A stretch of 11,593 nucleotides of DNA, taken from a virus. The position numbers and the translations under genes were made by a program. The notes below the pieces were generated by a model. That model ran no database searches, was not told the DNA's origin, and saw only the letters and a list, made by a program, of their open reading frames with translations. Positions 1-11,593 of this stretch are shown in pieces (the first letter of the stretch is position 1; every line of letters begins with the position of its first letter). The stretch is taken from the UHGV virus genome UHGV-1887975; one strand, written 5' to 3'.

Positions 1-128
1 CATAAAGTAAGGTCAATTACGCCAAAAATGACATTTTCACTGATCCTGATCGTCTTGCCTTATTGAATATGATTGCTATTTGCATTTAAAATCGAGACCT
101 GGTTTTTCTACTGAAATGATTATGACTT

Positions 129-141
129 CAATGACCCTTGA
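129..141. repeat. 13-bp exact direct repeat CAATGACCCTTGA, left copy; candidate left attachment-site core
   Basis: Identical 13-mer at 129..141 and 11514..11526, the latter immediately distal to the integrase gene. A single 13-mer match in an 11.6 kb window is not by itself significant. Confidence 0.3.
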
Positions 142-258
142 ATAAAGTCTATTCGGTTTTCTTTAGATGTTCGCCTCACATAATCTTCAAGTGATGTTCC
201 TTACATCTCCCTAGAGCGTTAAGATAGTTAACTGATTGAGTTTTCAGGGTATGAAAGG

Positions 259-924
259 ATGAGCAACACTACTGATTGGGGAAGCATGATAGCCAACATA
301 GTTATGGCTACTACCGCTGTCTGGGCTGCATTCAAAGCTAATGACTGGTTTAAAACCAAGCGTCTTGAGAGTGCTGAAAACTTCTATAAAGAAGTACACA
401 ATCTCCATAAACGTTACTATTCAGCTATCCAATACGTTGAGGATTCAAGAAGAATATTTGATAGTCAGTATGGGTTGCATTCGCCAATATCTGAACCTAA
501 AGACAAGTCATTGCAATGGGAGGTTAAATCGAACTCTTACAAAATCATCGCTGAACTAGATTATCTGGCATCGTCACTACAAATGATGGATGCAATGGGT
601 AACAAACTTAGCCCTAAATCGGCTTCACTGGTTAGTGATATGATGGAAGCACATGGACGATTCTGTAATGATGTGATGAACTTCAATGACTCAGTTTGGA
701 AGGTTATAAGGGCAGGTATAACTGAAGAGAACATCCCACATACGCGAGGCTATGTGAACGGCGATTACATGGCTATCCTTACCAGTATGGATGAACCTGT
801 AAGAATATCTTTTAAGTTAAAAGAAATCAGTTTTAAAGATTTTTACTTACATGAAACTACTATGCAGTCAGTAATAACGAGGCTGAAATCGCTTATCGCC
901 AGAACAGGTAAAAACAGGACATAA
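259..924 (+). CDS. Hypothetical protein, 221 aa, with predicted N-terminal transmembrane anchor
   Basis: Uninterrupted 666-nt ORF. Residues about 10-26 (IANIVMATTAVWAAF) form a hydrophobic helix followed by a charged soluble domain. The AAAGGA purine run abuts the ATG at 259 with essentially no spacer, so the true start may be the in-frame ATG at 286. No recognisable family motif. Confidence 0.55.
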   Translation: MSNTTDWGSMIANIVMATTAVWAAFKANDWFKTKRLESAENFYKEVHNLHKRYYSAIQYVEDSRRIFDSQYGLHSPISEPKDKSLQWEVKSNSYKIIAELDYLASSLQMMDAMGNKLSPKSASLVSDMMEAHGRFCNDVMNFNDSVWKVIRAGITEENIPHTRGYVNGDYMAILTSMDEPVRISFKLKEISFKDFYLHETTMQSVITRLKSLIARTGKNRT

Positions 925-1112
925 ACAGGTTAGTACCTATGCAATTTAACGGTATTTTTCCAAGTATCTATGCAATCCTACACAGATTCTATACAGTATC
1001 GACATAGTTTCCTTTTGGTATAACTTATTGAAATATATAAAGAATCTGTGAAGCCCCTTTTCAGGGTAAACTGTATCGTGTTAGTCGTCCCTCTCTCGAC
1101 TCCTAGAAAAGT

Positions 1113-1142
1113 GCTATATACAGGGCTATATAATGCTATATA
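1113..1142. repeat. Three tandem copies of GCTATATA (starts 1113, 1125, 1135)
   Basis: Direct reading: GCTATATAcaggGCTATATAatGCTATATA, spacing 12 and 10 bp. Contains a TATAAT hexamer at 1129..1134. Confidence 0.5.
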
Positions 1143-2591
1143 GATAGTTGGTCACATGGTGTAACTATCAAACTACTTAACAGTTTCCTACGTGAAAGTT
1201 AGAAAGTGATAGTTATAGTTACCTTGTCAAATCTTCGTAGTCCATTCTTAAAAAATCACTTACAGACACCTTAATATCTATACAGATTTCATGTAGAACA
1301 CGATTAGTGCGTAGAAGAGTCATTATGTTAAAAACGAACTGTATACGTATCAGTACTGATTTATAAGGGTTTTGTGTATTTGAAGATAAGAGGCTATACA
1401 GCACCTTGAGAGCATGTCTTCTAAGTCATTGATACATAAGGTCACAGAAGTTTGTGTCTGTTACAGAGAAAACTGGATAGGACTTCACAGAACTACAAAA
1501 TGTTACAGCTATTGATAGGTGAAATCTTCTTGATAGATGCCTTGAAGTGTGGTGAAGGTTTCTTGAGGTGGAGCTAAACAGATGCTATGAAGAAAGTCAA
1601 TAGTTGGTTATAGATATTTTAACTGCTTTTGCAAAGGGGGTGCTGTATCGTGAATCTGGGGTACTTAACAGCCATCAATCATGAGGTAGATTCTACCGAA
1701 TCAACTGTGTAGATATTTTTTAAGATTATCGGTGAAGGGGGAATGCAGAGGGGGGTACTACGATTTTTATAAAAATTTTCAGAAGCCAAATAACTACTGT
1801 GTATATTTTGCACAATCCTGCCAAACCTCATAGAAAGCTCTGTAGCGAGTTTTAACCCCATTTTTAGGGGTAACCTGTAGGGATGTACCACCCACCTTAA
1901 AATAAAGGGGTAAAATCGCTTAGAATGCGTTACAGAGCGTCTGAGAAGCTATATTCACAGATTTTACTAAAGTCTCAGACTTCTAAGTAGTCTTTTTAAC
2001 GGGAGGGTTCTTTCTCATGTATCACCCTCTCTTCCCGCTAAGTAAGCTACACAGACCTAGAGAACATGCCTTCACAGCATCTATATCAGGTCAGATTTAG
2101 AGGGTTTTGATAGAATTTTCAAAGGTACTTGACAGATAACTATGAAGTTGTTAGGAAGAATTGTTTAACGGGAGGAAAGATACGATATAACCCGAAGGGA
2201 AAGTATCATCTTAACAGTGATTGTAAGAGATACCTGAAAAGCTCCTCTTAACAGAACTACCAAGAAGAGAGGGAACGATAAGACCAGAGGTAGTGACCTG
2301 TTAAATAGTTCGTTTCAAAGCTCTTAAGAGTCTGTTAAGTAAGGGCTATGTGAACAATCTTACCATTTTGTCAATGCTCTTGTCTTTGACCTAAATCAAT
2401 AAAATGTATCGTTTGATATGGTTTTAAGCAAGATGGCTAAAAATCTTTTTAGAGGGGCGCTTCGCTTGTGTCACTATGTTCTTTCTCTCCCTGTCTAAGA
2501 GGGGGGTTACAGAGGTCTTTCAAGTCTCAATAGACAAACCGAGGAACGCAGGAAACCGAGGGAAGAAAAACTATTGTGATTACCCTGAACA

Positions 2592-2625
2592 AGGTCTGTA
2601 AAGGTCGTTTAAGAGGTCGGTTAAG
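2592..2625. repeat. Three tandem AGGTC-containing units of 10-12 bp (AGGTC at 2592, 2602, 2614); iteron-like
   Basis: Direct reading: aAGGTCtgtaa / AGGTCgtttaag / AGGTCggttaag. The last two units are 12 bp and differ at one position. Confidence 0.5.
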
Positions 2626-2749
2626 AAAGGAGCTTCCCTCTCTGGGGTTGTCGCTCTTCTCTCGCTTGGTGGATTGATTAGGGGGTATGTTATACAAGCC
2701 CAACTAAGAAGACCTCTGAAGCTTACCTGTGAAGAAGCTGAACAGCTAT

Positions 2750-2900
2750 TATATTGGGTGATTACAACTCATTGAAAAATAAGCATTTTTAGAAATCACT
2801 GTTAAGGTTGCAGAGTTGTCTGTGAGGAGACTTGTCTGCTCTCTATATTGGGTGGTTACAACTTATTGAAAAATAAGAACTTTTAGAAATCACTGTCAGA
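2750..2900. repeat. Pair of 57-bp imperfect direct repeats (2750..2806 and 2844..2900), 94-bp period
   Basis: Aligned by eye: TATATTGGGTGaTTACAACTcATTGAAAAATAAGcatTTTTAGAAATCACTGT versus TATATTGGGTGgTTACAACTtATTGAAAAATAAGaacTTTTAGAAATCACTGT, roughly 50 of 57 identical. Confidence 0.6.
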
Positions 2901-2998
2901 GAGGTGAATACTTGATAGATACAGCTTTCCGGTTCTGTCAAGTCATTTTTTAATAGATAGCATAAAATGCTAAAGATACCCCTATACCATCACGTACA

Positions 2999-3030
2999 GG
3001 GGGTTTTGAAGGGGGTTTAACGGGGGTCTG
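2999..3030. repeat. Three tandem G5-tract units (GGGGG at 2999, 3011, 3022)
   Basis: Direct reading: GGGGGTTTTGAA / GGGGGTTTAAC / GGGGGTCTGTG, spacing 12 and 11 bp. Overlaps the 3' end of the - strand small ORF. Confidence 0.5.
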
Positions 3031-3193
3031 TGTGGTCATTATCCTTAAGGTCAAGCGTCCATGTACGACCGAACAGTTTAAAGACAACAAGCACTCTGAC
3101 GAGGACGTAGCGAAGTAGCAGGCCTGCAATAAGTCCAATACCTCCACCAGCCCATACATCAGGTGACCCCAATTCTGGAGGGAGATTTACCAT
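3017..3193 (-). CDS. Putative small membrane protein, 58 aa (MVNLPPELGSPDVWAGGGIGLIAGLLLRYVLVRVLVVF...)
   Basis: Internal ATG of the track ORF 3017..3235 at 3191..3193 is preceded on the - strand by AAGGA about 7 nt upstream. It encodes a strongly hydrophobic glycine-rich helix of about 23 residues. It lies within locally GC-richer sequence, antisense to all neighbouring genes. Could be spurious. Confidence 0.35.
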   Translation of the reverse strand: MVNLPPELGSPDVWAGGGIGLIAGLLLRYVLVRVLVVFKLFGRTWTLDLKDNDHTDPR

Positions 3194-3410
3194 TAAATTT
3201 CCTTGTAAGACGCTCTCAATCGCATTCTGACACAAAAAAGTACCTGACCTTATAGTTGACCTGAAGAGGCCATTTAACTCGTTACAGAGCGATTGAAGAG
3301 GTCTGTGTGCAATGCAATAACCATGTGACCACTCTCATAGCCACGCCTCATATTTTACTCTCCCCATAGAACCATTATACCACAGATGTTAATGAAATGT
3401 TAAAAAGTGC

Positions 3411-3439
3411 TTGACATTAGTCTTTGAAAATGCTAGTAT
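3411..3439 (+). promoter_or_regulatory. Sigma70-type promoter: TTGACA, 17-bp spacer, TAGTAT
   Basis: Consensus -35 TTGACA at 3411..3416, 17-nt spacer, -10 TAGTAT at 3434..3439 (4 of 6 to TATAAT), about 48 bp upstream of the ATG at 3488. A TTAACAGAGG word sits at the expected transcription start. Confidence 0.55.
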
Positions 3440-3487
3440 TGTATATAAGTTAACAGAGGATTAACAATTATAAGGACTAGCTTATGA

Positions 3488-4042
3488 ATGAACGACAGAG
3501 AATTTAGAGCGATGCTTCAGGCATCAAGAGAACGCAACAAGCACAACTCCTACGCTTACACAAACAACCCCACCAGCTACGAACTACCAGCCTTTTCCAA
3601 ATCCGAACGTAAAAGCATTGAAGCGGTCATTCGTAGCATTACGCCACGAGGCAGATATATGCCAACACGCAAAACAACAAAGAATAACTTAAAAACTTTC
3701 TTGATGAGTTTTGACAGCTACGAACAATTACCGTCACGAATTGAAGATGTAATTATCGGCACTTGTCGCAGCTTTGGAAGGGATAACTATCACCGGAAAG
3801 TTTTCTATTTGCTTCGAAGCCTTGATGAGATTAACTCAAGCACAGTGACGAGCCATCTTCAAAGACAAGCAACCAGACTTAGCCACGAGCTACCATCTGA
3901 TAAGTATTGCGCTAATTTAACCACCATTTGCAATAAAGTTATCGAGACAATCAATCATCATGTTGGGGTTGGTAATATCAGCCTTACGACCAGTGAGCCA
4001 GACTTTGAATTTGACGTATACGCACAAGCAGAGGAATTTTAA
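3488..4042 (+). CDS. Hypothetical protein, 184 aa
   Basis: First gene after the predicted promoter; AAGGA about 10 nt upstream of the ATG. Basic, Ser/Thr/Arg-rich. No motif I can recognise. Confidence 0.65.
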   Translation: MNDREFRAMLQASRERNKHNSYAYTNNPTSYELPAFSKSERKSIEAVIRSITPRGRYMPTRKTTKNNLKTFLMSFDSYEQLPSRIEDVIIGTCRSFGRDNYHRKVFYLLRSLDEINSSTVTSHLQRQATRLSHELPSDKYCANLTTICNKVIETINHHVGVGNISLTTSEPDFEFDVYAQAEEF

Positions 4043-4043
4043 A

Positions 4044-4325
4044 ATGGGAAATAAACACACACTAACCAGAGTTACAAAGACAGCCTTTGAAGAACTTAAC
4101 CGAATCAAAAACATTACAGGTCTGCCACACTCAGCAGTGATGAAGCTTGCAATTAACCGTGATATTAACGAGCAGGATTTGCTTAATAGTCGTTTAGAGG
4201 CAGCAAGACACCATATCAGGATTAAGCAAGATGACCTTGATAGTCTGAAATCTTTAAATGCTTTTGGACTGGATTTAGCAAGGTTACTAAGTATCAAAAT
4301 TCACAAATTAGCGATGGAGGTTTAA
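4044..4325 (+). CDS. Hypothetical small protein, 93 aa (start moved to the RBS-supported ATG)
   Basis: Track ORF 3960..4325 would overlap the upstream gene by about 80 nt. The in-frame ATG at 4044 is preceded by GAGGAA (4031..4036) and begins 2 nt after the upstream stop. Its stop overlaps the next start (TAATG). Confidence 0.6.
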   Translation: MGNKHTLTRVTKTAFEELNRIKNITGLPHSAVMKLAINRDINEQDLLNSRLEAARHHIRIKQDDLDSLKSLNAFGLDLARLLSIKIHKLAMEV

Positions 4326-4711
4326 TGTATGACTTTTATAAACATCGTGACCATTTGGTAAGATTTGACGGTAAAGTCTGGAAAGACGTAACACAAACCA
4401 ATAAGCCCAAGTTTACCCACCAGCAATTAGCCTCAAGATTTGATATCTGGGCTGAAGCACAAAAAGATAATGGTGATTTCGAGTTTATCAGAGGTTTTGA
4501 TTATGCTTACGAAAGCGACCTTAAAGACGCCATTGAATTAATGGAGAACTTCAACTCTATTAAAAATAGTGACAAGCACAAAGCCAACGGTAACAGATAC
4601 GATAAAGATTTAATCATTGATGCAATCACCAAAGGACAATCACAAAGTTATATTTCTGAGAAATACGGCTTATCACGTAGTCAATACTACAAGATTAAAG
4701 CGTCTGTGTAA
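4325..4711 (+). CDS. Putative DNA-binding protein with C-terminal helix-turn-helix, 128 aa; possible transcriptional activator
   Basis: The C-terminal segment DKDLIIDAITKGQSQSYISEKYGLSRSQYYKIKASV has the classic pattern of a helix-turn-helix as found in small phage activators and sigma region-4-like domains. The start is translationally coupled to the upstream gene. Family assignment is an inference. Confidence 0.6.
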   Translation: MYDFYKHRDHLVRFDGKVWKDVTQTNKPKFTHQQLASRFDIWAEAQKDNGDFEFIRGFDYAYESDLKDAIELMENFNSIKNSDKHKANGNRYDKDLIIDAITKGQSQSYISEKYGLSRSQYYKIKASV

Positions 4712-4723
4712 GTCTGTGAGAAT

Positions 4724-4792
4724 GAGTGAGACTCAAAGATGAGCTACCCTATTACTAAGGTGTCTCACTCCCTCTGTAACCCGCATGGTTAC
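4724..4792 (+). promoter_or_regulatory. Two consecutive hairpin-forming inverted repeats in the gap between genes
   Basis: Perfect 9-bp inverted repeat GAGTGAGAC (4724..4732) / GTCTCACTC (4762..4770) with a 29-nt loop, followed by a 6-bp stem GTAACC (4776..4781) / GGTTAC (4787..4792) with a 5-nt loop. No U-tract follows either, so they are not classic terminators. Confidence 0.4.
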
Positions 4793-4849
4793 TGGCCTCA
4801 GAATGGCTATTTTGGCAGATTTAAGATGTGTTTTTATAGGATTTTAAAA

Positions 4850-5173
4850 ATGAATAATTTCCCACTACAGATTTTTATTGATACCGACACCGCCATGATG
4901 ATTCAGGCTTTCACTGATGTAGGTGTTAGCATTGACTTTGATAAGTTGTTAGAGTTAATGGCTGATNATNCNGANANCATCTNTGACTTTATTCACTCGG
5001 TGGAGTTTAACGAGCCTCGAATGATGTTACCAATTACAGACAGTAATATGAAAAGATTGGTTATTGAGCAAACGAACAAATACAGTATTTCCCCAGAGCA
5101 ATTTTTGAAAGGTGCTGTGACAATCCTGTACAGCGATAATATTTTGGTTACGGATTCCGTGAGGGTTCACTAA
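4850..5173 (+). CDS. Hypothetical protein, about 107 aa (alternative start 4739 gives 144 aa); contains ambiguous bases
   Basis: Track ORF 4739..5173. The ATG at 4739 lies inside the hairpin region, so the in-frame ATG at 4850 is preferred, but neither has a strong RBS. Codons 4967..4984 include N, so several residues are undefined. Confidence 0.45.
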   Translation: MNNFPLQIFIDTDTAMMIQAFTDVGVSIDFDKLLELMADXXXXIXDFIHSVEFNEPRMMLPITDSNMKRLVIEQTNKYSISPEQFLKGAVTILYSDNILVTDSVRVH

Positions 5174-5250
5174 TGGGCTTAATAATTGCTTGGACGTTGC
5201 TTGGCTTATTTGTTGGTTGCTGGGTGGGTAACACAGTAAATAAGAATTGA
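5173..5250 (+). CDS. Candidate micro-ORF encoding a 25-aa hydrophobic peptide (MGLIIAWTLLGLFVGCWVGNTVNKN)
   Basis: Its ATG overlaps the upstream stop (TAATG at 5171..5175), suggesting translational coupling. The peptide is almost entirely one transmembrane-like helix. Below the length cut-off of the ORF track and could be fortuitous. Confidence 0.3.
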   Translation: MGLIIAWTLLGLFVGCWVGNTVNKN

Positions 5251-5468
5251 TGTTATCAATCTGTTAAAAGCTGTTGACAAATAACCTTAAGCATGAGATG
5301 ATGGTAATAGGGGGCAACTCTTCCTGAATTAAACTATTAATCATTCTACATCAATGATAGTTATTCTGAGTTGGAAAGGTGCAATGCTTTTCGTCATGGC
5401 CTATTTAGCCCACACTAGATAGGCTATCTCAAAAAGTCTTTGTTTATTCATTGAATCCTTTACAGATT

Positions 5469-5496
5469 GCCCTAATCATGAGTTAGGGCGTTTTTT
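5469..5496 (+). terminator. Rho-independent terminator
   Basis: Perfect 7-bp stem GCCCTAA (5469..5475) / TTAGGGC (5483..5489), 7-nt loop, followed by G then TTTTTT (5491..5496). Confidence 0.65.
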
Positions 5497-5667
5497 AAGA
5501 GTTTTTAAAGAAATTTCTTCACCAGCCCTTTATAGCGTTTTAGTTATCTAGGGCTTTTTCAGCTTTTAAAAAGCATACTTGGCAAACGCTTTTAAGTCTC
5601 TTCTAAGTTCGTAGGCTGTCAGGTGTGCTTTTTAAAAACTGAATATTACTTAGAAGAGGAAAAAACA

Positions 5668-6378
5668 ATGACAAACGATTTATATATTAACGGCAGAAAG
5701 ATTGATAGCTTCGGGGACTGGTCACCACAGGGTGAACATCCGCTACATACTATTCAGCGTAAAGAACACGATGAAAGAATTAAGCTTGAGCAAGAGTTAA
5801 AGATGTCACCAAAGGTAATTTCCTTTGTGTCTCCTGAGCCTCAAGAAATGCCTGATGTATGCAAAACTGAAGCACTATTTAATCTTGAGCGTGAATATTA
5901 CCCACTGCTAAAAGCACAGCGTATTAAACTAGATGACGCTTACAGCAAAGTTACCCTGATGCAATCAGCTATTGAGCCATCAGAATTTGAGATTCAGGAT
6001 GAATTGTCACAGAAACCATTTGTCTATTACAAATATGAAGACAATGATGGTTTTGGTACTTTTCCTGAGAATATCCCAGACGTGATTAATAATCTTCCTG
6101 ATGGATATCGAATTGTGAAGATGGTTAAAGCTTCAAGAGGTGCTGGTCAGTTTATTTTCATGACCGATAGGAGCGATGAAGAACTCTGTGAAATTGCTAA
6201 ACAGAACATCTTAGCATCACGTAACAAGCAACTTGAAAATGTTAAGTTGTATCTCTCAAGAGAGCTTCAGGCTATGAAAGAGCTTGTTAGTGAATATGAA
6301 TCACAGAAGAAGATTGCTATGCAGGCTGATATTGAGCAGTTAGTGAAGATTTCTCAGAAATATGCAAAGGCACTTTAA
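5668..6378 (+). CDS. Hypothetical protein, 236 aa (start moved to the RBS-supported ATG)
   Basis: Track ORF starts at 5623. The in-frame ATG at 5668 is preceded by GAGGA (5656..5660) with 7-nt spacing. Acidic, with a coiled-coil-like C-terminus. No recognisable motif. Confidence 0.65.
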   Translation: MTNDLYINGRKIDSFGDWSPQGEHPLHTIQRKEHDERIKLEQELKMSPKVISFVSPEPQEMPDVCKTEALFNLEREYYPLLKAQRIKLDDAYSKVTLMQSAIEPSEFEIQDELSQKPFVYYKYEDNDGFGTFPENIPDVINNLPDGYRIVKMVKASRGAGQFIFMTDRSDEELCEIAKQNILASRNKQLENVKLYLSRELQAMKELVSEYESQKKIAMQADIEQLVKISQKYAKAL

Positions 6379-6402
6379 CTATGAATTAAAAGGAGGTGGT
6401 GA

Positions 6403-6606
6403 ATGATTGATTTAACAGAACGCTATGAGCTTATTAAAGCAATTAGTGAACGATTGAAAGAACAACCCAACAAACCAAAACGAATCAAATCATCCACCTC
6501 TAAGCAAAAGAATAGAATCAGAAGAATCGCTAAATGGTGTCTTGATAAATTACCAAGTGATTGTCAGATTGTCGGTGAAGATGGTAATTATTATCTGGTT
6601 AGGTAA
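6403..6606 (+). CDS. Hypothetical small basic protein, 67 aa
   Basis: Strong RBS AAGGAGG (6390..6396) 6 nt upstream of the ATG. Lys/Arg-rich centre (KPKRIKSSTSKQKNRIRRIAK). Followed by a terminator. Confidence 0.65.
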   Translation: MIDLTERYELIKAISERLKEQPNKPKRIKSSTSKQKNRIRRIAKWCLDKLPSDCQIVGEDGNYYLVR

Positions 6607-6631
6607 AAAGATTGGTTGGGTAAAAATCAAC

Positions 6632-6672
6632 GGGAGAGATTATCGAGTGACATCGGTAGCTCTCCCTTTTTT
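6632..6672 (+). terminator. Rho-independent terminator
   Basis: Stem GGGAGAG (6632..6638) / CTCTCCC (6660..6666) enclosing a 21-nt loop, followed directly by TTTTTT (6667..6672). Confidence 0.6.
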
Positions 6673-6702
6673 GTATATGAGATAGTCTTCTATCGAATCC
6701 TG

Positions 6703-6801
6703 TGTGCTACGTGATGATTCGGATAAGAATTATCCTCATGAAATCTGTAAAACTAATACCCACACTGAAAAATAGAATTTACGTACAACACGCTTAAAGA
6801 G
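6703..6801 (+). promoter_or_regulatory. Upstream regulatory cassette, copy 1: GTGTGCTACGTGA, ATACCCAC-N-AAAAAT, TTTACGTA, CACGCTTAAAGAG
   Basis: The same four blocks occur in the same order upstream of the gene at 9102. This copy carries an extra palindrome GGATAAGAATTATCC (6721..6735) between the first and second blocks. Confidence 0.55.
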
Positions 6802-6812
6802 GTGAAACATGA

Positions 6813-8936
6813 ATGAGCAAATTCACAGTTGATAGTTTTATCGTTGAGCTAGGCTTCAATGAAAACGTTATTAAGGGACTGCAAAGAGTTGAAAAGGCAG
6901 CTTTGCAGTCAGCACAAAGAATTGAAAAGAACCTAAATAAAGGTTTCAGGATTAATACAAAGCAGCTTGATAGTAATTTAACGGCTTCTTTAGGGCAGCT
7001 TGAAAGGAAGTTTAATAAGGCCTTTGACAAGATTGAACAGAGAGCAAGAAATACTAAAGCTTTCCAGTTTACCACCAGATTTAATGACACTGTTAATCCT
7101 CCAAAACAACCAAGACAGCCACGAATTAGCGGAAACAGAGCAATCACAGCAGCTTACTCAGCGAATATGAGCAAGCTAAAAGGCCTTAACCCAATTGTCG
7201 AGAAATACATTAAGAGTCAGTTTTACGGGCTATCTGCTAAAGCCGGGTCAATGGATTCTTCAAAATTCAATGAGAAGTTAGCTCAGTTAAACGCTTCAGT
7301 CAGAGAAGCAATTGCTAAAGCCAGAGGTCATACATCCACCAGCATTAATGGTGACAGAGCAGCTAATAGTCTTGATAACCTGTCTTCAGCAGCAGTTAAA
7401 ACAGCAGGTGCATTTATCTCAATGCAGGCTGTATTAGCCAGTTATCAGAAGATTATGGAAATTGGTTTACAGCGTGCAAGTGCTGAACGTTCAATTGATT
7501 TCGTATTTGATAAAGATGCAGGTCAGGTAAAAGAGTTCACAAAGTCATTAGCTCAAACAACGGGTTTAGATATCGCTGAACTGCAATCACAGTTTGCTGG
7601 TTTTGGTGCTTCAGCTAAAGAGTCTATGGGTATTCAAGGTTCTGAAGAACTTTTTAAAAATATGATTGGCTATGCTCGTCTGATGGGGAGAAGTGAAGAA
7701 GAGATTAAGCGAGCACTGACAGCATTATCACAGATGGCTGGTAAGGGTCAGATTATGGCTGAAGAGCTTAAGGGGCAACTGGCTGAAGCTGTTCCTGGTA
7801 TGGTTCAGGTATTCGCTAAAGCAACCGGAAAGACTGAACAGGAATTATTTGATGCCATGAAGAAGGGGGCTTTAAAATCTGCCGATACTCTTCAGAAGGT
7901 CACTCAGGAACTGAATAAACAAATCACCGCTAAAGGTGGCTGGAAAGCCATTTCAGAAAGTACTCAGGCACAACTAGGGAACTTGAAAAACTCTTGGAAT
8001 ACCACGCTTGATAGTATCTTCAGAGGTTCTGAAAATGGTCTGCAAGATTTTACACGAAGCCTAACAACGCTTTTAAACGCTCTTGGTGGAAGTGGTAAAA
8101 GTCTTGGTGAATCTCTTGGTAGTCTCATGACTTCTATGTCACATGGTGTCGATAGTCTGACCGATATTAGTTACAAGGTGCGAGCGTTCTTTGATGAGGT
8201 GACATTAGCTTACCGTTCACTAAATGACACTCAGAGGAAAATTGTTGATGGTTTATCTGATGGGTTAATTGATGGTTTGAAGATGCTTGCTGTGGCTGTT
8301 ACTGCTCAAAAGGCTGCAAATGTAGCTGGAGGCTTGTTAAACCTTGCAAATGCTGTTACTTCATTCGGTGATGCTGTTAATAAAGCTAAAGCTGGCAAGG
8401 CTGGTTCTTCAGGTGGTGCGCTAAGTAAAGTCGGTAGAGTTGTCCTTTATGCTGAGTTGGTAAACTTTGCTCTTGATAATTTAAACCCTGAAGCAGCTAA
8501 GAATCCGAACTTACACCAATCAGGTATTGGTACAGAAACAAACTTCAATCCTGAATACAAAGGCGATTCTAAACCAAACCAAATTAATGAGGGGTGGGCT
8601 AAGATTGGTAGTTCTATCGCTGACTGGTTTAATGGTGCAGCTAATAAAATTGCTAACTTACAAGAACCGATGAATAACTTCGTAAATAACACACAATCAA
8701 CTCCACCAGCTATCGACACGGTGAATATCAATGCTCAATTAGCTATGGCTGTATCAGAGTTAGGAAGAAAGGTTGATGCTTTAACAGTAGAAGCTCGGAA
8801 GCCTTTATCAGTTAATATCAAAGGTGAAGCAATTGTTAGGCCGGATGAGCCATCTTTCTTTAATTTCAATCAATCAGCTAATGACCAGTTCACGCAGGAT
8901 ATGCTCTTAAGTTCAAGCTATCCAGAGGAAGAATGA
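6813..8936 (+). CDS. Tape-measure-domain protein, 707 aa (putative phage tail length tape-measure protein)
   Basis: The central segment GYARLMGRSEEEIKRALTALSQMAGKGQIMAEELKGQLAEAVPGMVQVFAKATGKTEQELFDAMKKGALKSADTL matches, as I recall it, the conserved tape-measure signature of lambda gpH-type proteins. N-terminus is coiled-coil-like; C-terminal third is Asn/Gln/Ser-rich low complexity. RBS AGAGGTG about 10 nt upstream. Confidence 0.75.
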   Translation: MSKFTVDSFIVELGFNENVIKGLQRVEKAALQSAQRIEKNLNKGFRINTKQLDSNLTASLGQLERKFNKAFDKIEQRARNTKAFQFTTRFNDTVNPPKQPRQPRISGNRAITAAYSANMSKLKGLNPIVEKYIKSQFYGLSAKAGSMDSSKFNEKLAQLNASVREAIAKARGHTSTSINGDRAANSLDNLSSAAVKTAGAFISMQAVLASYQKIMEIGLQRASAERSIDFVFDKDAGQVKEFTKSLAQTTGLDIAELQSQFAGFGASAKESMGIQGSEELFKNMIGYARLMGRSEEEIKRALTALSQMAGKGQIMAEELKGQLAEAVPGMVQVFAKATGKTEQELFDAMKKGALKSADTLQKVTQELNKQITAKGGWKAISESTQAQLGNLKNSWNTTLDSIFRGSENGLQDFTRSLTTLLNALGGSGKSLGESLGSLMTSMSHGVDSLTDISYKVRAFFDEVTLAYRSLNDTQRKIVDGLSDGLIDGLKMLAVAVTAQKAANVAGGLLNLANAVTSFGDAVNKAKAGKAGSSGGALSKVGRVVLYAELVNFALDNLNPEAAKNPNLHQSGIGTETNFNPEYKGDSKPNQINEGWAKIGSSIADWFNGAANKIANLQEPMNNFVNNTQSTPPAIDTVNINAQLAMAVSELGRKVDALTVEARKPLSVNIKGEAIVRPDEPSFFNFNQSANDQFTQDMLLSSSYPEEE

Positions 8937-8952
8937 TTTCTTATATATATCC

Positions 8953-9026
8953 GTGTGCTACGTGAAATCTTCTGAACGGATATACCCACTAAAAATTATT
9001 TTTTACGTAGCTCACGCTTAACAGAG
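8953..9026 (+). promoter_or_regulatory. Upstream regulatory cassette, copy 2: GTGTGCTACGTGA, ATACCCACTAAAAAT, TTTACGTA, CACGCTTAACAGAG
   Basis: Same four blocks as 6703..6801 in the same order and similar spacing, but without the palindrome insert. Ends about 75 nt upstream of the ATG at 9102. Confidence 0.55.
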
Positions 9027-9101
9027 AAAATACTTATATATCAAAGGTTTGGTTAAAAATGATTAAAATACACTAAGCCTTTGAAATCAAAGGAGAATTT
9101 A

Positions 9102-9872
9102 ATGATTTACACTAATCAGCTTCGTTACAGTGGCAAAGATGGTGTTTACTTCCATCTACAAGGCCAACCAGATAATTTCTTGTCACTATCAGCAACTGAG
9201 AACATGGAATATGACAGCCCTATGATGGTGACCACTCAAAATATGCAATCAGGGCAGACTGTAACAGATAATGTAATGCGTTCACCAAGAACTATTTCAA
9301 TCAGTGGTGTGGTTGTGGTTGGTGAATCCGGTAGTATCCTTATCTCAAGAGATAATAAGCTGGTGGAAAACTTCATAGACACTCTTGAAAACTGGCGTGA
9401 CCAGAAGCAAATTATCTCAGTTGTCTGTAAAGATGGTATTAAGATTGACGACTCAATTATTACAAGCTTTAAAGCCTCTAAAGATGTTGGTATTTCAAAC
9501 GGCCTAAGAATCCAGCTAACTTTTCAGGAAATCAACTTTAAAGCTATCGTAGGGCAAACTGATATTTCGACTGCTACTGGCAAGACCGCTACCACGAATG
9601 ATGGTGGTGCTACTTCTAAGAAGAATACAGGGAATACTACGACAAGTCTTGGAAGCCCTATGCTGACCTGTAAAGAGCTTTTTAGCTATTCGGCAAGTAA
9701 GTTATCAGATGAAGCGCTAAAAGCCCGTGTAACGTGCTCTAAGAGCGTTAGCGTTAAAAATGGTGAGAGCACCTTCACAGCCTCAGCTAATGAGCAAGCT
9801 TCAAAGGTGCTTAAGTCGGGTAATGCTTTACGGAAGTACTCTGTGAATCCGAATAAGAAGGGCACTTATTGA
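9102..9872 (+). CDS. Hypothetical protein, 256 aa; possible tail-associated structural protein by position only
   Basis: The track ORF begins at a TTG (9081). The ATG at 9102 has AAGGAG (9090..9095) at 6-nt spacing. Ser/Thr/Gly-rich. Assignment as tail-associated rests only on its position after the tape-measure-like gene. Confidence 0.65.
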
Positions 9873-9876
9873 GACA

Positions 9877-9899
9877 TAAAAAGGGGCTTCATAGCCCCT
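9877..9899. terminator. Terminator hairpin between convergent genes
   Basis: Perfect 7-bp GC-rich stem AGGGGCT (9882..9888) / AGCCCCT (9893..9899) with a 4-nt loop. AAAAA (9877..9881) on the + strand gives a U-tract after the stem for the - strand transcript (integrase); a weaker A/T stretch follows for the + strand. Confidence 0.6.
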
Positions 9900-9904
9900 G
9901 AAAA

Positions 9905-11425
9905 TTACAGTTGATAAGCGTCAATATCCAGTAGCTCTTTATCAGCAATTTCAAAGATTGGTGACCCATCATTTAGCGGTAACGGGTTTGTAGGTATGGT
10001 TATTTCAGTGTCGTTCTGTAGCGTTACAGTTACCGAATCCTTACCCAATGTCAGCCCCTTTAGATGCTTGGACAAAATCAACTGACACTCGACACGACCC
10101 GCTTTAGTTGTCAGGTCAATATCTTTAAGCTGGGGTAGTTCCTTATCAGTGAGTGAAGCCTTACGCCTCATGTTATCAATCGTGGTCTGTAGCTCTGTGC
10201 GCTTCTGGTTCAGTTCCTTAAGCTGAATTTTTAGTTCATCAATATCATCCATCTCAAGAAGTAGGGCGGTAGCTTTCTTGATTCTGGTTGTGACAATTTC
10301 AACCTCATGCTGTAGAGATGCAATCTTCCCCTCTGCTTCTCCATCATTCCCCACGTCAATCATCCCCAGAAAATTATCAATCATCCACTTATCAAACGGT
10401 TTACGCTTCAACGGAGGAACATCACAGCGACCATCAAGATGGTTATTGCACCGATAAACGCCCTGATACTTATTCTTAGTCCCTGTAGGGTGAACACTAG
10501 CCCCGCACTGACACCTAAACAGACCTTTGAAGATGTTAATCGTTAATGGATTATCACTTGCAGGTGTACGGCCTATACGGTTCTTACCAAGAATCTCTTG
10601 AGCTTTATTGAACGTTGAAGCATCTATAGCGGCTTCGTAGTAGTTCGGTATAGCGGGGCGGTCATTACGTTGTGATGCTGGTAACGTGCCTATCGTTGTC
10701 TCTGACCTTAAGATGGTGCGTACAGAGTGAACACTAAACCCGTTAGCATCTTTACGGCGACTAAACGACTTTATACCGTTGCTTTGAAGGTGACGGGCGA
10801 TGTTATGCAGACTTTCACCACTTAGCAGCAGCTTGAAAATCAGTCTTACAGTCTCAGCGTGTTCATTGAGTTTAAAAGTATCGGGGTCAATCCATCCGGG
10901 AACCATCTTTGTTAAACGTTGTTCACCAGCAAGGGCAAGTTTTGCACGTTGCTCCCATTTCTGAGAAACACGGAAAGACTTCTGCTTAGATTCCTGATGC
11001 GCTATGTAGGCTTTGACACGCTGGATGATTGAGATTCCTAAATCATCGGCTAAAGCATCCTTTGTGTAGATAAGACCATCTTGTAGCGTGTGAATCTCTA
11101 ACCCGTTGCCTAAGATGCGATTCATCAAGGCTTCTGTTTCAAGGTGTTCTAAGCGGCCTATACGGTCGATACTCTCAACAAGCAAAATCGTACCTTCTGG
11201 AAACTCCCCAGACTCAATACGGGCTAACATGTCACCAAACTGACCAGTAAGATGCTTACCTTTGTAACCGGATAGGCCTTCATCACTGAAAGACGCTACT
11301 ACTTGAGCATCGCTATTCTTCTTCAGCCACTGCTTGAACAGGTCGTTTTGTCGTCTGGTTGAATCTGCACCTTCAGCGCCTTGTATAGCTGAACTGTACC
11401 GAAGGTATGTAATTACGCTCCTCAT
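9905..11425 (-). CDS. int: Large serine recombinase (site-specific integrase), 506 aa
   Basis: N-terminal resolvase-type catalytic domain with candidate nucleophilic Ser in YLRYSSAIQ, a D-x-G-x-SG motif (SDEGLSGYKG) and LVESIDRIGR resembling the resolvase DRLGR box. A large recombinase domain follows, then a Cys-rich zinc-ribbon-like segment (CQCG...C...C) and a C-terminal coiled coil. This is the typical large-serine-recombinase architecture. GGGAG RBS upstream on the - strand. Confidence 0.9.
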   Translation of the reverse strand: MRSVITYLRYSSAIQGAEGADSTRRQNDLFKQWLKKNSDAQVVASFSDEGLSGYKGKHLTGQFGDMLARIESGEFPEGTILLVESIDRIGRLEHLETEALMNRILGNGLEIHTLQDGLIYTKDALADDLGISIIQRVKAYIAHQESKQKSFRVSQKWEQRAKLALAGEQRLTKMVPGWIDPDTFKLNEHAETVRLIFKLLLSGESLHNIARHLQSNGIKSFSRRKDANGFSVHSVRTILRSETTIGTLPASQRNDRPAIPNYYEAAIDASTFNKAQEILGKNRIGRTPASDNPLTINIFKGLFRCQCGASVHPTGTKNKYQGVYRCNNHLDGRCDVPPLKRKPFDKWMIDNFLGMIDVGNDGEAEGKIASLQHEVEIVTTRIKKATALLLEMDDIDELKIQLKELNQKRTELQTTIDNMRRKASLTDKELPQLKDIDLTTKAGRVECQLILSKHLKGLTLGKDSVTVTLQNDTEITIPTNPLPLNDGSPIFEIADKELLDIDAYQL

Positions 11426-11488
11426 GGTGATAAACTCCCATGCAATTGATTCTCATTTAAAGATAAGCTTATAACCATTATGGCTAAT

Positions 11489-11526
11489 GCTACAATGCCG
11501 AATAGCTACAATACAATGACCCTTGA
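11489..11526. repeat. Integrase-proximal repeat cluster: GCTACAATG / GCTACAAT / ACAATG, then the right copy of CAATGACCCTTGA; candidate attachment-site region
   Basis: Direct reading of 11489..11526. The 13-mer at 11514..11526 is identical to 129..141. Sequence to the right becomes GC-rich (cctcgccgcttcccctggccgacg...). Confidence 0.4.
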
Positions 11527-11593
11527 TTTACCTCGCCGCTTCCCCTGGCCGACGTTACTTTCGGTCTGCATTCATGGTGCTGTTGTGGCGGGG

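What the first reader, a model, noticed from the sequence alone, without database searches (positions are those of the whole stretch)
4325..4711. Small helix-turn-helix protein as candidate activator of the duplicated late-gene cassettes
A 128-aa protein with a C-terminal helix-turn-helix, at the end of a translationally coupled three-gene block driven by a sigma70-type promoter. This resembles the arrangement of small phage middle/late activators such as the Mor/C family of phage Mu (inference, not a demonstrated homology). The two downstream genes share an unusual non-sigma70-looking upstream cassette that such a protein could recognise.
Basis: inference. Interest (0 to 1): 0.5.

Follow-up and report, generated by a model that had tools for sequence, protein, structure and literature searches.

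The report
Accessory HTH protein of satellite-like island
The 128-aa gene is real and encodes a new two-domain protein ending in a DNA-binding helix-turn-helix, but it is an optional gene of an E. coli phage-satellite-like island, is not related to phage Mu Mor/C, and is probably not the switch for the two tail-gene cassettes.

Summary
Observation confirmed. ORF 4325-4711 is a real gene under purifying selection. It is the last of three tightly coupled cistrons behind a near-consensus sigma70 promoter. AlphaFold predicts an alpha/beta N-domain with no known fold match, followed by a C-terminal three-helix HTH. The shared cassettes upstream of the tape-measure (TMP) and Dit-like genes are also real.

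There is no homology to Mor/C: no Pfam hit, hhalign probability 0.7-9%, and a different N-domain. The family is a narrow orphan found in Escherichia islands.

The window is an integrative island with a serine recombinase. It carries TMP and Dit genes taken from Felix O1-like phages. About 467 of 5426 complete E. coli genomes carry the Dit cassette, but only about 179 carry an orf128-family gene. Intact islands without orf128 keep the same cassettes, and the TMP cassette copy is itself optional.

orf128 instead always travels with a conserved structured element just downstream of it (4724-4815), which includes the palindrome GTAACC-N5-GGTTAC. This holds even in an unrelated capsid-encoding satellite.

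Best reading: an accessory early-operon DNA-binding regulator that acts on this adjacent site. A direct role at the cassettes is not excluded but is disfavoured. Moderate interest.

The parts
3411..3439 (+). Early sigma70-type promoter (TTGACA-17-TAGTAT, with TG extension) for the orf184-orf93-orf128 block. It is divergent from a minus-strand promoter at 3403-3374.
3488..4042 (+). orf184, first cistron of the block. No family match. Replaced by an HTH_36 replication-type protein in some island variants.
4044..4325 (+). orf93, second cistron. Its start lies 1 nt after the orf184 stop, and its stop overlaps the orf128 start. A ribbon-helix-helix fold was suspected from the sequence pattern only and was not confirmed.
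4325..4711 (+). orf128, the finding: a 128-aa protein. N-terminal alpha/beta domain at aa 1-83 (nt 4325-4573), disordered linker at aa 81-91, C-terminal three-helix HTH at aa 94-127 (nt 4604-4705).
4724..4770 (+). Hairpin 1 of the 'type X' element. The 9-bp stem pairs GAGTGAGAC (4724-4732) with GTCTCACTC (4762-4770). Three pairs change on both sides between allele groups.
4767..4815 (+). Conserved core of the type X element: ACTCCCTCTG (4767-4776), the perfect palindrome GTAACCCGCATGGTTAC (4776-4792), then GGCCTCAGAATGGCTATTTT. It is always found downstream of HTH-bearing orf128-family genes and is the proposed cis target.
4850..5173 (+). orf107, the next gene and part of the island core. It is followed by an intrinsic terminator at 5468-5490, so the early transcript may extend to here.
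6632..6672 (+). Strong intrinsic terminator after orf67 (GGGAGAG...CTCTCCC plus a T-run), immediately upstream of the TMP cassette or the TMP ribosome-binding site.
6702..6797 (+). Cassette 1, upstream of TMP. Box A 6702-6714 is split from its AAATCT tail by a 27-nt insertion (6712-6738). The -10-like TAGAAT is at 6773-6778 and box B at 6778-6797. This is context only; it is not shown to be an orf128 target.
8953..9021 (+). Cassette 2, upstream of the Dit-like gene. Box A 8953-8970, ATACCCAC 8982-8989, -10-like TATTTT 8997-9002, box B 9002-9021. This is context only; it is not shown to be an orf128 target.

Best explanation
orf128 encodes an accessory two-domain DNA-binding protein of a mosaic family of Escherichia integrative, phage-satellite-like islands. 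The N-terminal alpha/beta domain has no known fold match. The C-terminus is a resolvase/sigma-region-4-type three-helix HTH.

The protein is made as the last cistron of the early sigma70 operon (shown from sequence). Its most likely site of action is the conserved element immediately downstream of its own gene, not the TMP/Dit cassettes. That element comprises hairpin 1, ACTCCCTCTG and the palindrome GTAACC-N5-GGTTAC, at 4724-4815. By binding there, probably as a dimer, it would set how much transcription passes from the early block into orf107 and the genes beyond (inferred). The sign of the effect, whether activation, repression or anti-termination, is unknown. Any effect on the tail-gene cassettes would be indirect or dispensable.
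For: The gene is real and constrained. The HTH is supported by AF2 and by consistent weak profile hits.

The family is confined to such islands. There are 18 clusters among 5.8 billion proteins, 7 representatives among 1.84 billion, and no hit in 50,697 phage genomes.

Co-occurrence with type X is complete. Every locus with an HTH-bearing family member and enough downstream sequence has the type X core. This covers about 60 loci and three allele classes (87-100%, 55% and 39% identity). It includes L050, an unrelated capsid-encoding satellite with a tyrosine integrase. There the protein is only 39% identical, yet ACTCCCTCTG plus a hairpin persists about 60 nt after the stop codon.

Islands lacking the HTH protein lack type X and carry a different 'type Y' element (L005, L029, L038, L119). 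L124 has a 73-aa homologue of the N-domain only (hhalign 81.6%) and also lacks type X.

Sequence just 3' of the core assorts independently of the orf128 allele. The core therefore travels with the gene rather than with orf107.

The palindrome half-sites are 11 bp apart centre to centre, which fits a dimeric HTH protein. It is a unique perfect match in the window, but a match within 2 mismatches arises in 49 of 200 shuffles, so on its own it is not significant.
Against: - Adjacency alone could produce the linkage.
- Hairpin 1 shows compensatory changes, which points to an RNA-level role rather than a DNA operator.
- Several alleles carry one-arm changes in the palindrome.
- L050 has a different, shifted hairpin.
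- No -10/-35 pair that the site would obviously control was found.
- No binding data exist.
- The HTH matches are all below the curated thresholds.
Confidence: 0.4

Rival explanations
1. First reader's model. orf128 is a Mor/C-like class II activator. It binds the shared cassettes (box A/box B) and switches on the TMP and Dit promoters.
For: - The cassettes lack a -35 but keep a TAnnnT -10-like element and conserved flanking boxes.
- TMP is preceded by a strong terminator, so it needs its own promoter or read-through.
- orf128 has a C-terminal HTH at the same relative position as in Mor/C.
- The distant relative P0019 also lies just upstream of morphogenetic genes.
Against: - There is no homology to Mor/C.
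- The cassette is far commoner than the gene: 467 or 264 genomes against 179 or 127.
- Intact orf128-less islands have identical boxes.
- The boxes are invariant across 55-100% orf128 alleles whose recognition helices differ.
- L050, which carries the relative P0019, has no cassette-like repeat.
- The TMP cassette is absent in 28 of 49 orf128-positive loci.
Confidence: 0.12
2. orf128 is directed at the helper or target phage (a Felix O1-like virus), not at the island. Its HTH would bind phage DNA, or its N-domain a phage protein, to tune helper gene expression, as some satellite proteins do.
For: - The island carries TMP and Dit genes 70-84% identical to Felixounavirus genes, so it interacts with these phages.
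- orf128 is an optional, highly mosaic accessory gene, as expected for arms-race functions.
- The N-domain can occur without the HTH.
Against: - The strict linkage to the type X element is left unexplained.
- No type X or cassette-like sequence occurs in phage HY02 or in any of 50,697 phage records.
- The family also occurs in a lambda-type-capsid satellite that presumably has a different helper.
Confidence: 0.15
3. orf128 is not a transcription factor. It would be a packaging-specificity (small-terminase-like) protein or a recombination directionality factor for the serine integrase, with the type X element as its pac/cos-like site.
For: - Small HTH proteins next to a conserved cis site are typical of TerS/pac modules.
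- HNH genes alternate in or next to the slot.
- The best weak structural matches are resolvase HTH domains.
Against: - orf128 alleles assort independently of integrase type: 29-35% against 90-100% identity to the window integrase. Islands without orf128 use the same integrases. Both argue against a directionality factor.
- The HNH genes are HNH_3 homing-type, not the terminase-associated type.
- There is no TerS profile hit.
- The HTH is C-terminal, unlike most TerS proteins.
Confidence: 0.08

Closest known systems
Phage Mu Mor and C (Pfam PF08765) middle/late activators
   Same: About 130-140 aa, with the HTH near the C-terminus. Encoded ahead of late genes whose promoters lack a -35.
   Different: No detectable sequence or profile similarity beyond 21-24 HTH columns. 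The N-domain is predicted as beta-beta-beta-alpha-beta-alpha, not a helical dimerisation bundle. The presumed target promoters exist without the gene.
AlpA-type small HTH regulators of Gram-negative PICI satellites. From my own knowledge: PICI AlpA activates the island lytic operon, and Pseudomonas AlpA acts as a processive antiterminator.
   Same: A small satellite-encoded HTH protein placed between early and morphogenetic genes. A DNA site next to the regulated unit. Terminators lie between the regulator and the late genes.
   Different: No Phage_AlpA (PF05930) or MerR-type hit. The HTH is C-terminal after an unrelated domain. The gene is optional in the island family.
Resolvase/Hin HTH_7, IS-transposase HTH_23/HTH_28 and sigma70 region 4 tri-helical HTH domains
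   Same: These are the only profile and structure similarities seen. They cover residues about 90-127.
P2 Ogr / P4 Delta late activators of the P2-P4 helper-satellite pair
   Same: The concept: a satellite-encoded factor that turns on late promoters shared by duplicated sites.
   Different: Ogr and Delta are zinc-finger proteins. orf128 has no cysteine at all (seen directly in the sequence) and gives no profile hit.
Lambda Q / qut late antitermination module
   Same: The regulator gene is directly followed by its cis site, with intrinsic terminators between it and the morphogenetic genes. In L050, a promoter and two terminators precede the capsid genes.
   Different: No Q-family profile hit. 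No promoter embedded in type X was identified. Purely an architectural analogy.

Membership tests
Mor/C family (Pfam PF08765, phage Mu) | Significant sequence or profile similarity to Mor/C | tested here: not met
   hmmscan against Pfam at E<=1 gives no Mor hit for orf128 or for 4 relatives. hhalign of the family alignment against Mu Mor gives probability 0.7%, and against Mu C 8.9%.
Mor/C family (Pfam PF08765, phage Mu) | N-terminal helical dimerisation domain (Mor crystal structure; from my own knowledge) | tested here: not met
Mor/C family (Pfam PF08765, phage Mu) | C-terminal helix-turn-helix | tested here: met
   AF2 helices 94-102, 107-114 and 118-127, plus weak HTH profile hits.
Mor/C family (Pfam PF08765, phage Mu) | Binds a dyad upstream of -35-less promoters and activates them | not testable with these tools
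   Needs gel shift and reporter assays. Comparative data argue against the cassettes as an obligate target.
Tri-helical HTH superfamily (HTH_7 / HTH_23 / HTH_28 / Sigma70_r4) | Profile match above the curated threshold | tested here: inconclusive
   Best scores are 17.9 bits (HTH_28, cut-off 25) for orf128 and 19.3 bits (Sigma70_r4_2, cut-off 25.7) for P0019. The hits are consistent across members but sub-threshold. The resolvase HTH is the best PDB similarity.
PICI AlpA (PF05930) / excisionase-type HTH | Profile match to Phage_AlpA or MerR-like HTH | tested here: not met
   No such hit at E<=1.
Ogr/Delta zinc-finger late activators | Four-cysteine zinc finger | tested here: not met
   The orf128 sequence contains no cysteine, and there is no profile hit.
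Phage satellite (the island as a whole) | Integrase, only a partial set of structural genes, and genes related to a specific helper phage | tested here: met
   Large serine recombinase (Resolvase + Recombinase + Zn_ribbon_recom). Only TMP and Dit-like structural genes. Both are homologous to the adjacent Felixounavirus genes HY02_067/068.
Phage satellite (the island as a whole) | Induction, replication and packaging dependent on a helper phage | not testable with these tools
   No experiment was possible, and no paper on this island was found.

The most novel reading that the evidence does not exclude
orf128 and the type X element form a portable 'regulator plus loading site' module shared by unrelated satellite backbones. 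The protein would act as a processive antiterminator, working like Q or AlpA but from a new protein family. It would let early transcription read through the intrinsic terminators at 5468-5490 and 6632-6672 into the stolen tail genes. This would explain why more than half of orf128-positive islands have no TMP cassette at all, with the TMP ribosome-binding site abutting the terminator.
Probability: 0.12. Interest if true: 0.65.

Novelty: new variant of a known kind. Interest (0 to 1): 0.35.

Why it matters
On its own, the protein is one more small HTH regulator of a mobile element, though it has an N-domain of unknown fold and no characterised relatives.

The context is what matters. The island belongs to a family found in about 9% of complete E. 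coli genomes, and I found no description of it in the searched literature. The family has captured the tape-measure and distal-tail genes of virulent Felix O1-like phages and placed them behind its own conserved control cassette.

Knowing which factor fires that cassette would show how a chromosomal element times tail-gene expression against a lytic phage whose own temporal regulation is still unknown. Candidates are an island protein, the host, or the phage.

Showing that orf128 is dispensable for the cassettes, and is tied to a different cis element, redirects the experiments.

Tried and rejected
Annotation searches on orf128:
- Pfam, PHROGs, NCBIfam and PADLOC scans gave only sub-threshold HTH hits.
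- A PDB sequence search with the family profile gave nothing significant.
- BFVD gave one unnamed 127-aa viral protein (A0A6G5Y9G6, E=2e-5, TM 0.51), which I could not trace.
- tblastn of orf128 and of P0019 against 50,697 phage genomes gave nothing.

Is the cassette a copy of a helper late promoter? This was rejected for now. No box or composite motif occurs in Felixounavirus HY02. No phage record matches the cassette. The Felix O1 genome paper reports no late-promoter consensus (PMC3185647).

Is the cassette a structured RNA? The box A/box B stem is significant as a fold (z = -4.7 and -3.4). However, the arms are conserved in sequence, with one-sided breaks and only G-U to G-C changes. A paired protein site is equally possible.

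Other checks:
- Recombination directionality factor was rejected because orf128 and integrase alleles assort independently.
- Rfam and tRNA scans of the window were empty.
- Pattern ACTCCCTCTG-N4-CCGCAT in IMG/VR gave only known loci plus one chance hit inside a large ORF.
- P0020 looked like an N-domain-only form but is cut by a contig end.
- orf93 as a ribbon-helix-helix protein was not confirmed by single-sequence AF2.
- PDB sequence searches for orf93, orf67 and orf184 were empty.
- Five literature searches found nothing on the island or its proteins.

Full report
**1. The observation**

The ORF at 4325-4711 exists as described: ATG, 128 codons, TAA.

- It overlaps the stop of the preceding 93-codon ORF in a TAATG and has its own GGAGG.
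- That preceding ORF starts 1 nt after the stop of a 184-codon ORF.
- A near-consensus sigma70 promoter, TTGACA-17-TAGTAT with an extended-10 TG, lies at 3411-3439.
- The gene is real. Among 45 related loci I found 40 distinct nucleotide alleles, of which 39 are intact. dN/dS against the window allele is mostly 0.1-0.4.

**2. The protein**

Profile searches give only weak hits, all over residues 93-127: HTH_28 E=0.003, HTH_7 0.04 and HTH_23 0.1. There is nothing in PHROGs, NCBIfam or PADLOC.

The family is tiny.

- There are 18 clusters among 5.8 billion proteins, all from Escherichia.
- There are 7 representatives among 1.84 billion proteins when searched exhaustively with the family profile.
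- No phage genome encodes a detectable relative.

AlphaFold2 on the family alignment (pLDDT 76) predicts three parts:

- an N-terminal beta-beta-beta-alpha-beta-alpha domain, residues 1-83;
- a disordered linker, residues 81-91;
- a three-helix bundle, helices 94-102, 107-114 and 118-127.

P0019, a 39%-identical member, has a more canonical C-terminus. It hits Sigma70_r4_2, Sigma70_r4, HTH_28 and GerE, all below threshold.

**3. The Mor/C test**

I fetched Mu mor and C and compared them with the family alignment. hhalign gave probabilities of 0.7% and 8.9%, covering only 21-24 columns of the HTH. There is no Pfam Mor hit, and the N-domain is of a different structural class. orf128 is therefore not a Mor/C family member. 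The resemblance is limited to size and to the position of the HTH.

**4. What the window is**

The window is a chromosomal island of about 11.3 kb between yciI and tonB. It is 99.8% identical to strain UTAK-18.

- It has a large serine recombinase at 9905-11425 on the minus strand.
- TMP (6813-8936) and the Dit-like protein (9102-9872) are homologues of two adjacent, overlapping genes of Felix O1-like phages. The Dit gene is 81-84% identical at the DNA level. The Dit protein is 71% identical, and the first 47 residues of TMP are 70% identical, to HY02_068 and HY02_067.
- Related islands sit at three or more attachment sites. They are extremely mosaic, with every gene present in several alleles that assort independently.
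- The invariant core is orf107-orf236-orf67-TMP-Dit-integrase.
- I found no publication on this island.

**5. The cassettes**

Aligning the regions upstream of TMP and Dit from many islands gives this consensus:

[orf67 terminator] GTGTGCTACGTGAAATCT - about 14 variable nt - ATACCCAC - AAAAAT - TAnnnT - T(T/C)ACGTA - 3 nt - CACGCTTAA - ribosome-binding site.

- There is no -35, so a factor-dependent promoter is plausible.
- Box A and box B are an inverted repeat. Folded as RNA, the z-scores are -4.7 and -3.4. The arms are conserved in sequence rather than merely in complementarity.
- Box A-like sites also cluster at 1187-1527: 5 sites against 1.1 expected, and 0 of 200 shuffles reach that count.
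- The cassette occurs only in Escherichia and Shigella.
- It is absent from phage HY02 and from all 50,697 phage records. There is therefore no evidence that it copies a helper promoter.
- Felix O1 temporal control is itself unknown (PMC3185647).

**6. Does orf128 go with the cassettes? It does not.**

Counts among 5426 complete E. coli genomes:

| Feature | Genomes |
|---|---|
| Dit cassette plus leader | 467 |
| Cassette-1 core | 264 |
| orf128 by blastn | 127 |
| Element that always accompanies orf128-family genes, including the 55% allele | 179 |

- Clonal lineages with IS-decayed islands inflate the orf128-less class (for example L005). Even so, intact islands without orf128 exist and have unchanged boxes: L029, L038, L119 and L124.
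- In those islands the slot holds other genes. These are a 71-aa ORF plus an HNH_3 endonuclease, or in L124 a 73-aa remote homologue of the N-domain alone (hhalign 81.6%).
- The boxes do not change between orf128 alleles with different recognition helices (SRSQYYKIK against SRRQYFYVK).
- The TMP cassette copy is itself facultative. It is present in 21 of 49 orf128-positive loci and 7 of 9 orf128-negative loci. The Dit copy is nearly universal. The orf128-negative sample is biased, because part of it was found through the cassette pattern.
- Where the TMP copy is missing, the TMP ribosome-binding site directly follows the strong orf67 terminator.

**7. What orf128 does go with**

Every HTH-bearing family member is followed by the same 'type X' element. 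Its parts are:

- Hairpin 1, a 9-bp stem. Three pairs change on both sides between the allele groups, and the pairing is largely kept in L050.
- ACTCCCTCTG.
- The perfect palindrome GTAACCCGCATGGTTAC at 4776-4792. It is a unique perfect match in the window, but a match within 2 mismatches arises in 49 of 200 shuffles, so it is not significant alone.
- GGCCTCAGAATGGCTATTTT.

Sequence immediately 3' of this core assorts independently of the orf128 allele.

The relative P0019 lies in a quite different satellite, L050. That element has a small resolvase, iterons, a lambda-type capsid gene and a tyrosine integrase. P0019 is nevertheless followed by ACTCCCTCTG and a hairpin with different arms. A promoter-like sequence and two terminators then precede the capsid genes.

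Islands without the HTH protein carry a different 'type Y' element before orf107.

This is the strongest comparative signal I found, and I take type X as the likeliest cis partner of the protein. Adjacency alone could produce the linkage, and the hairpin covariation could mean an RNA-level role. I therefore give this reading 0.4.

**8. Rivals**

- Direct cassette activator: 0.12.
- Action on the helper phage: 0.15.
- Packaging factor or recombination directionality factor: 0.08. The directionality factor is contradicted by the independent assortment of orf128 and integrase alleles.
- The most novel reading not excluded is a Q/AlpA-like antiterminator module: 0.12.

**9. Verdict**

- The Mor/C analogy is not a homology.
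- The proposed target is disfavoured by distribution data.
- The protein is a new variant of a familiar kind, a small HTH regulator of a mobile element.
- The surrounding island and its cassette are the more interesting objects.

Noticed in passing
window 1-11593 (island about 130-11480): The whole window is an integrative island between yciI and tonB. It has a large serine recombinase and carries TMP and Dit-like genes homologous to two adjacent, overlapping Felixounavirus genes. The family is in about 467 of 5426 complete E. coli genomes, at three or more insertion sites, and is extremely mosaic. No paper was found on it. It could be a satellite of virulent Felix O1-like phages or a tail-decoy defence element.
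   Followed up: partly
window 6632-6812; loci L047-L107: The TMP copy of the cassette is facultative: present in 28 of 58 loci, against 49 of 52 for the Dit copy. Where it is absent, the TMP ribosome-binding site abuts the orf67 terminator. This implies read-through or antitermination.
   Followed up: partly
window 6712-6738: A 27-nt insertion splits box A of cassette 1. It is flanked by TGA repeats and has an internal palindrome, GGATAAgaaTTATCC. The same insertion occurs in L029.
   Followed up: no
window 1187-1200(+), 1284-1297(-), 1514-1527(+): Three box A-like sites (CTACGTGAAA-type) lie in the ORF-free left part of the island. The window holds 5 sites in all, against 1.1 expected by chance. 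The site at 1284-1297 is conserved in L005.
   Followed up: partly
window 3017-3403 (-) and 3202-3310 (+): A strong minus-strand promoter (TTAACA-18-TATAAT with TG, 3403-3374) is divergent from the early promoter. It points at a small conserved hydrophobic ORF (3235-3017). Its leader overlaps a structured 'type Y' repeat, whose arm recurs inverted at 1922-1948. In orf128-less islands, type Y precedes orf107. A toxin/antisense-RNA arrangement is possible.
   Followed up: no
window 2750-2802 and 2844-2896: Two 53-nt direct repeats, 92% identical and 94 nt apart, lie in a region without ORFs.
   Followed up: no
window 924-3487: About 2.5 kb has no convincing ORF, no Rfam family and no tRNA. Other island variants carry an AP2/HNH-type gene, a small resolvase or a DNA adenine methyltransferase in this region.
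   Followed up: partly
window 4967-4983: Ambiguous bases (N) lie inside orf107. The near-identical L001 sequence reads through cleanly.
   Followed up: yes
L005 6146-6645; L007 8729-9001: Short HNH_3 endonuclease genes (90-95 aa) occupy or adjoin the orf128 slot in other islands. This suggests that homing-endonuclease traffic shapes this position.
   Followed up: partly
L050 1-13244: A different satellite-like element carries the orf128 relative P0019 just before a promoter, two terminators and the capsid genes. It has a small resolvase, four 23-nt palindromic iterons at 5467-5613, a Phage_cap_E capsid gene and a tyrosine integrase.
   Followed up: partly
window 5668-6378: orf236 is named 'transposase' in RefSeq annotation, but it has no Pfam, NCBIfam or PHROGs support. 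It is a core island gene with a conserved coiled-coil-like C-terminus.
   Followed up: partly
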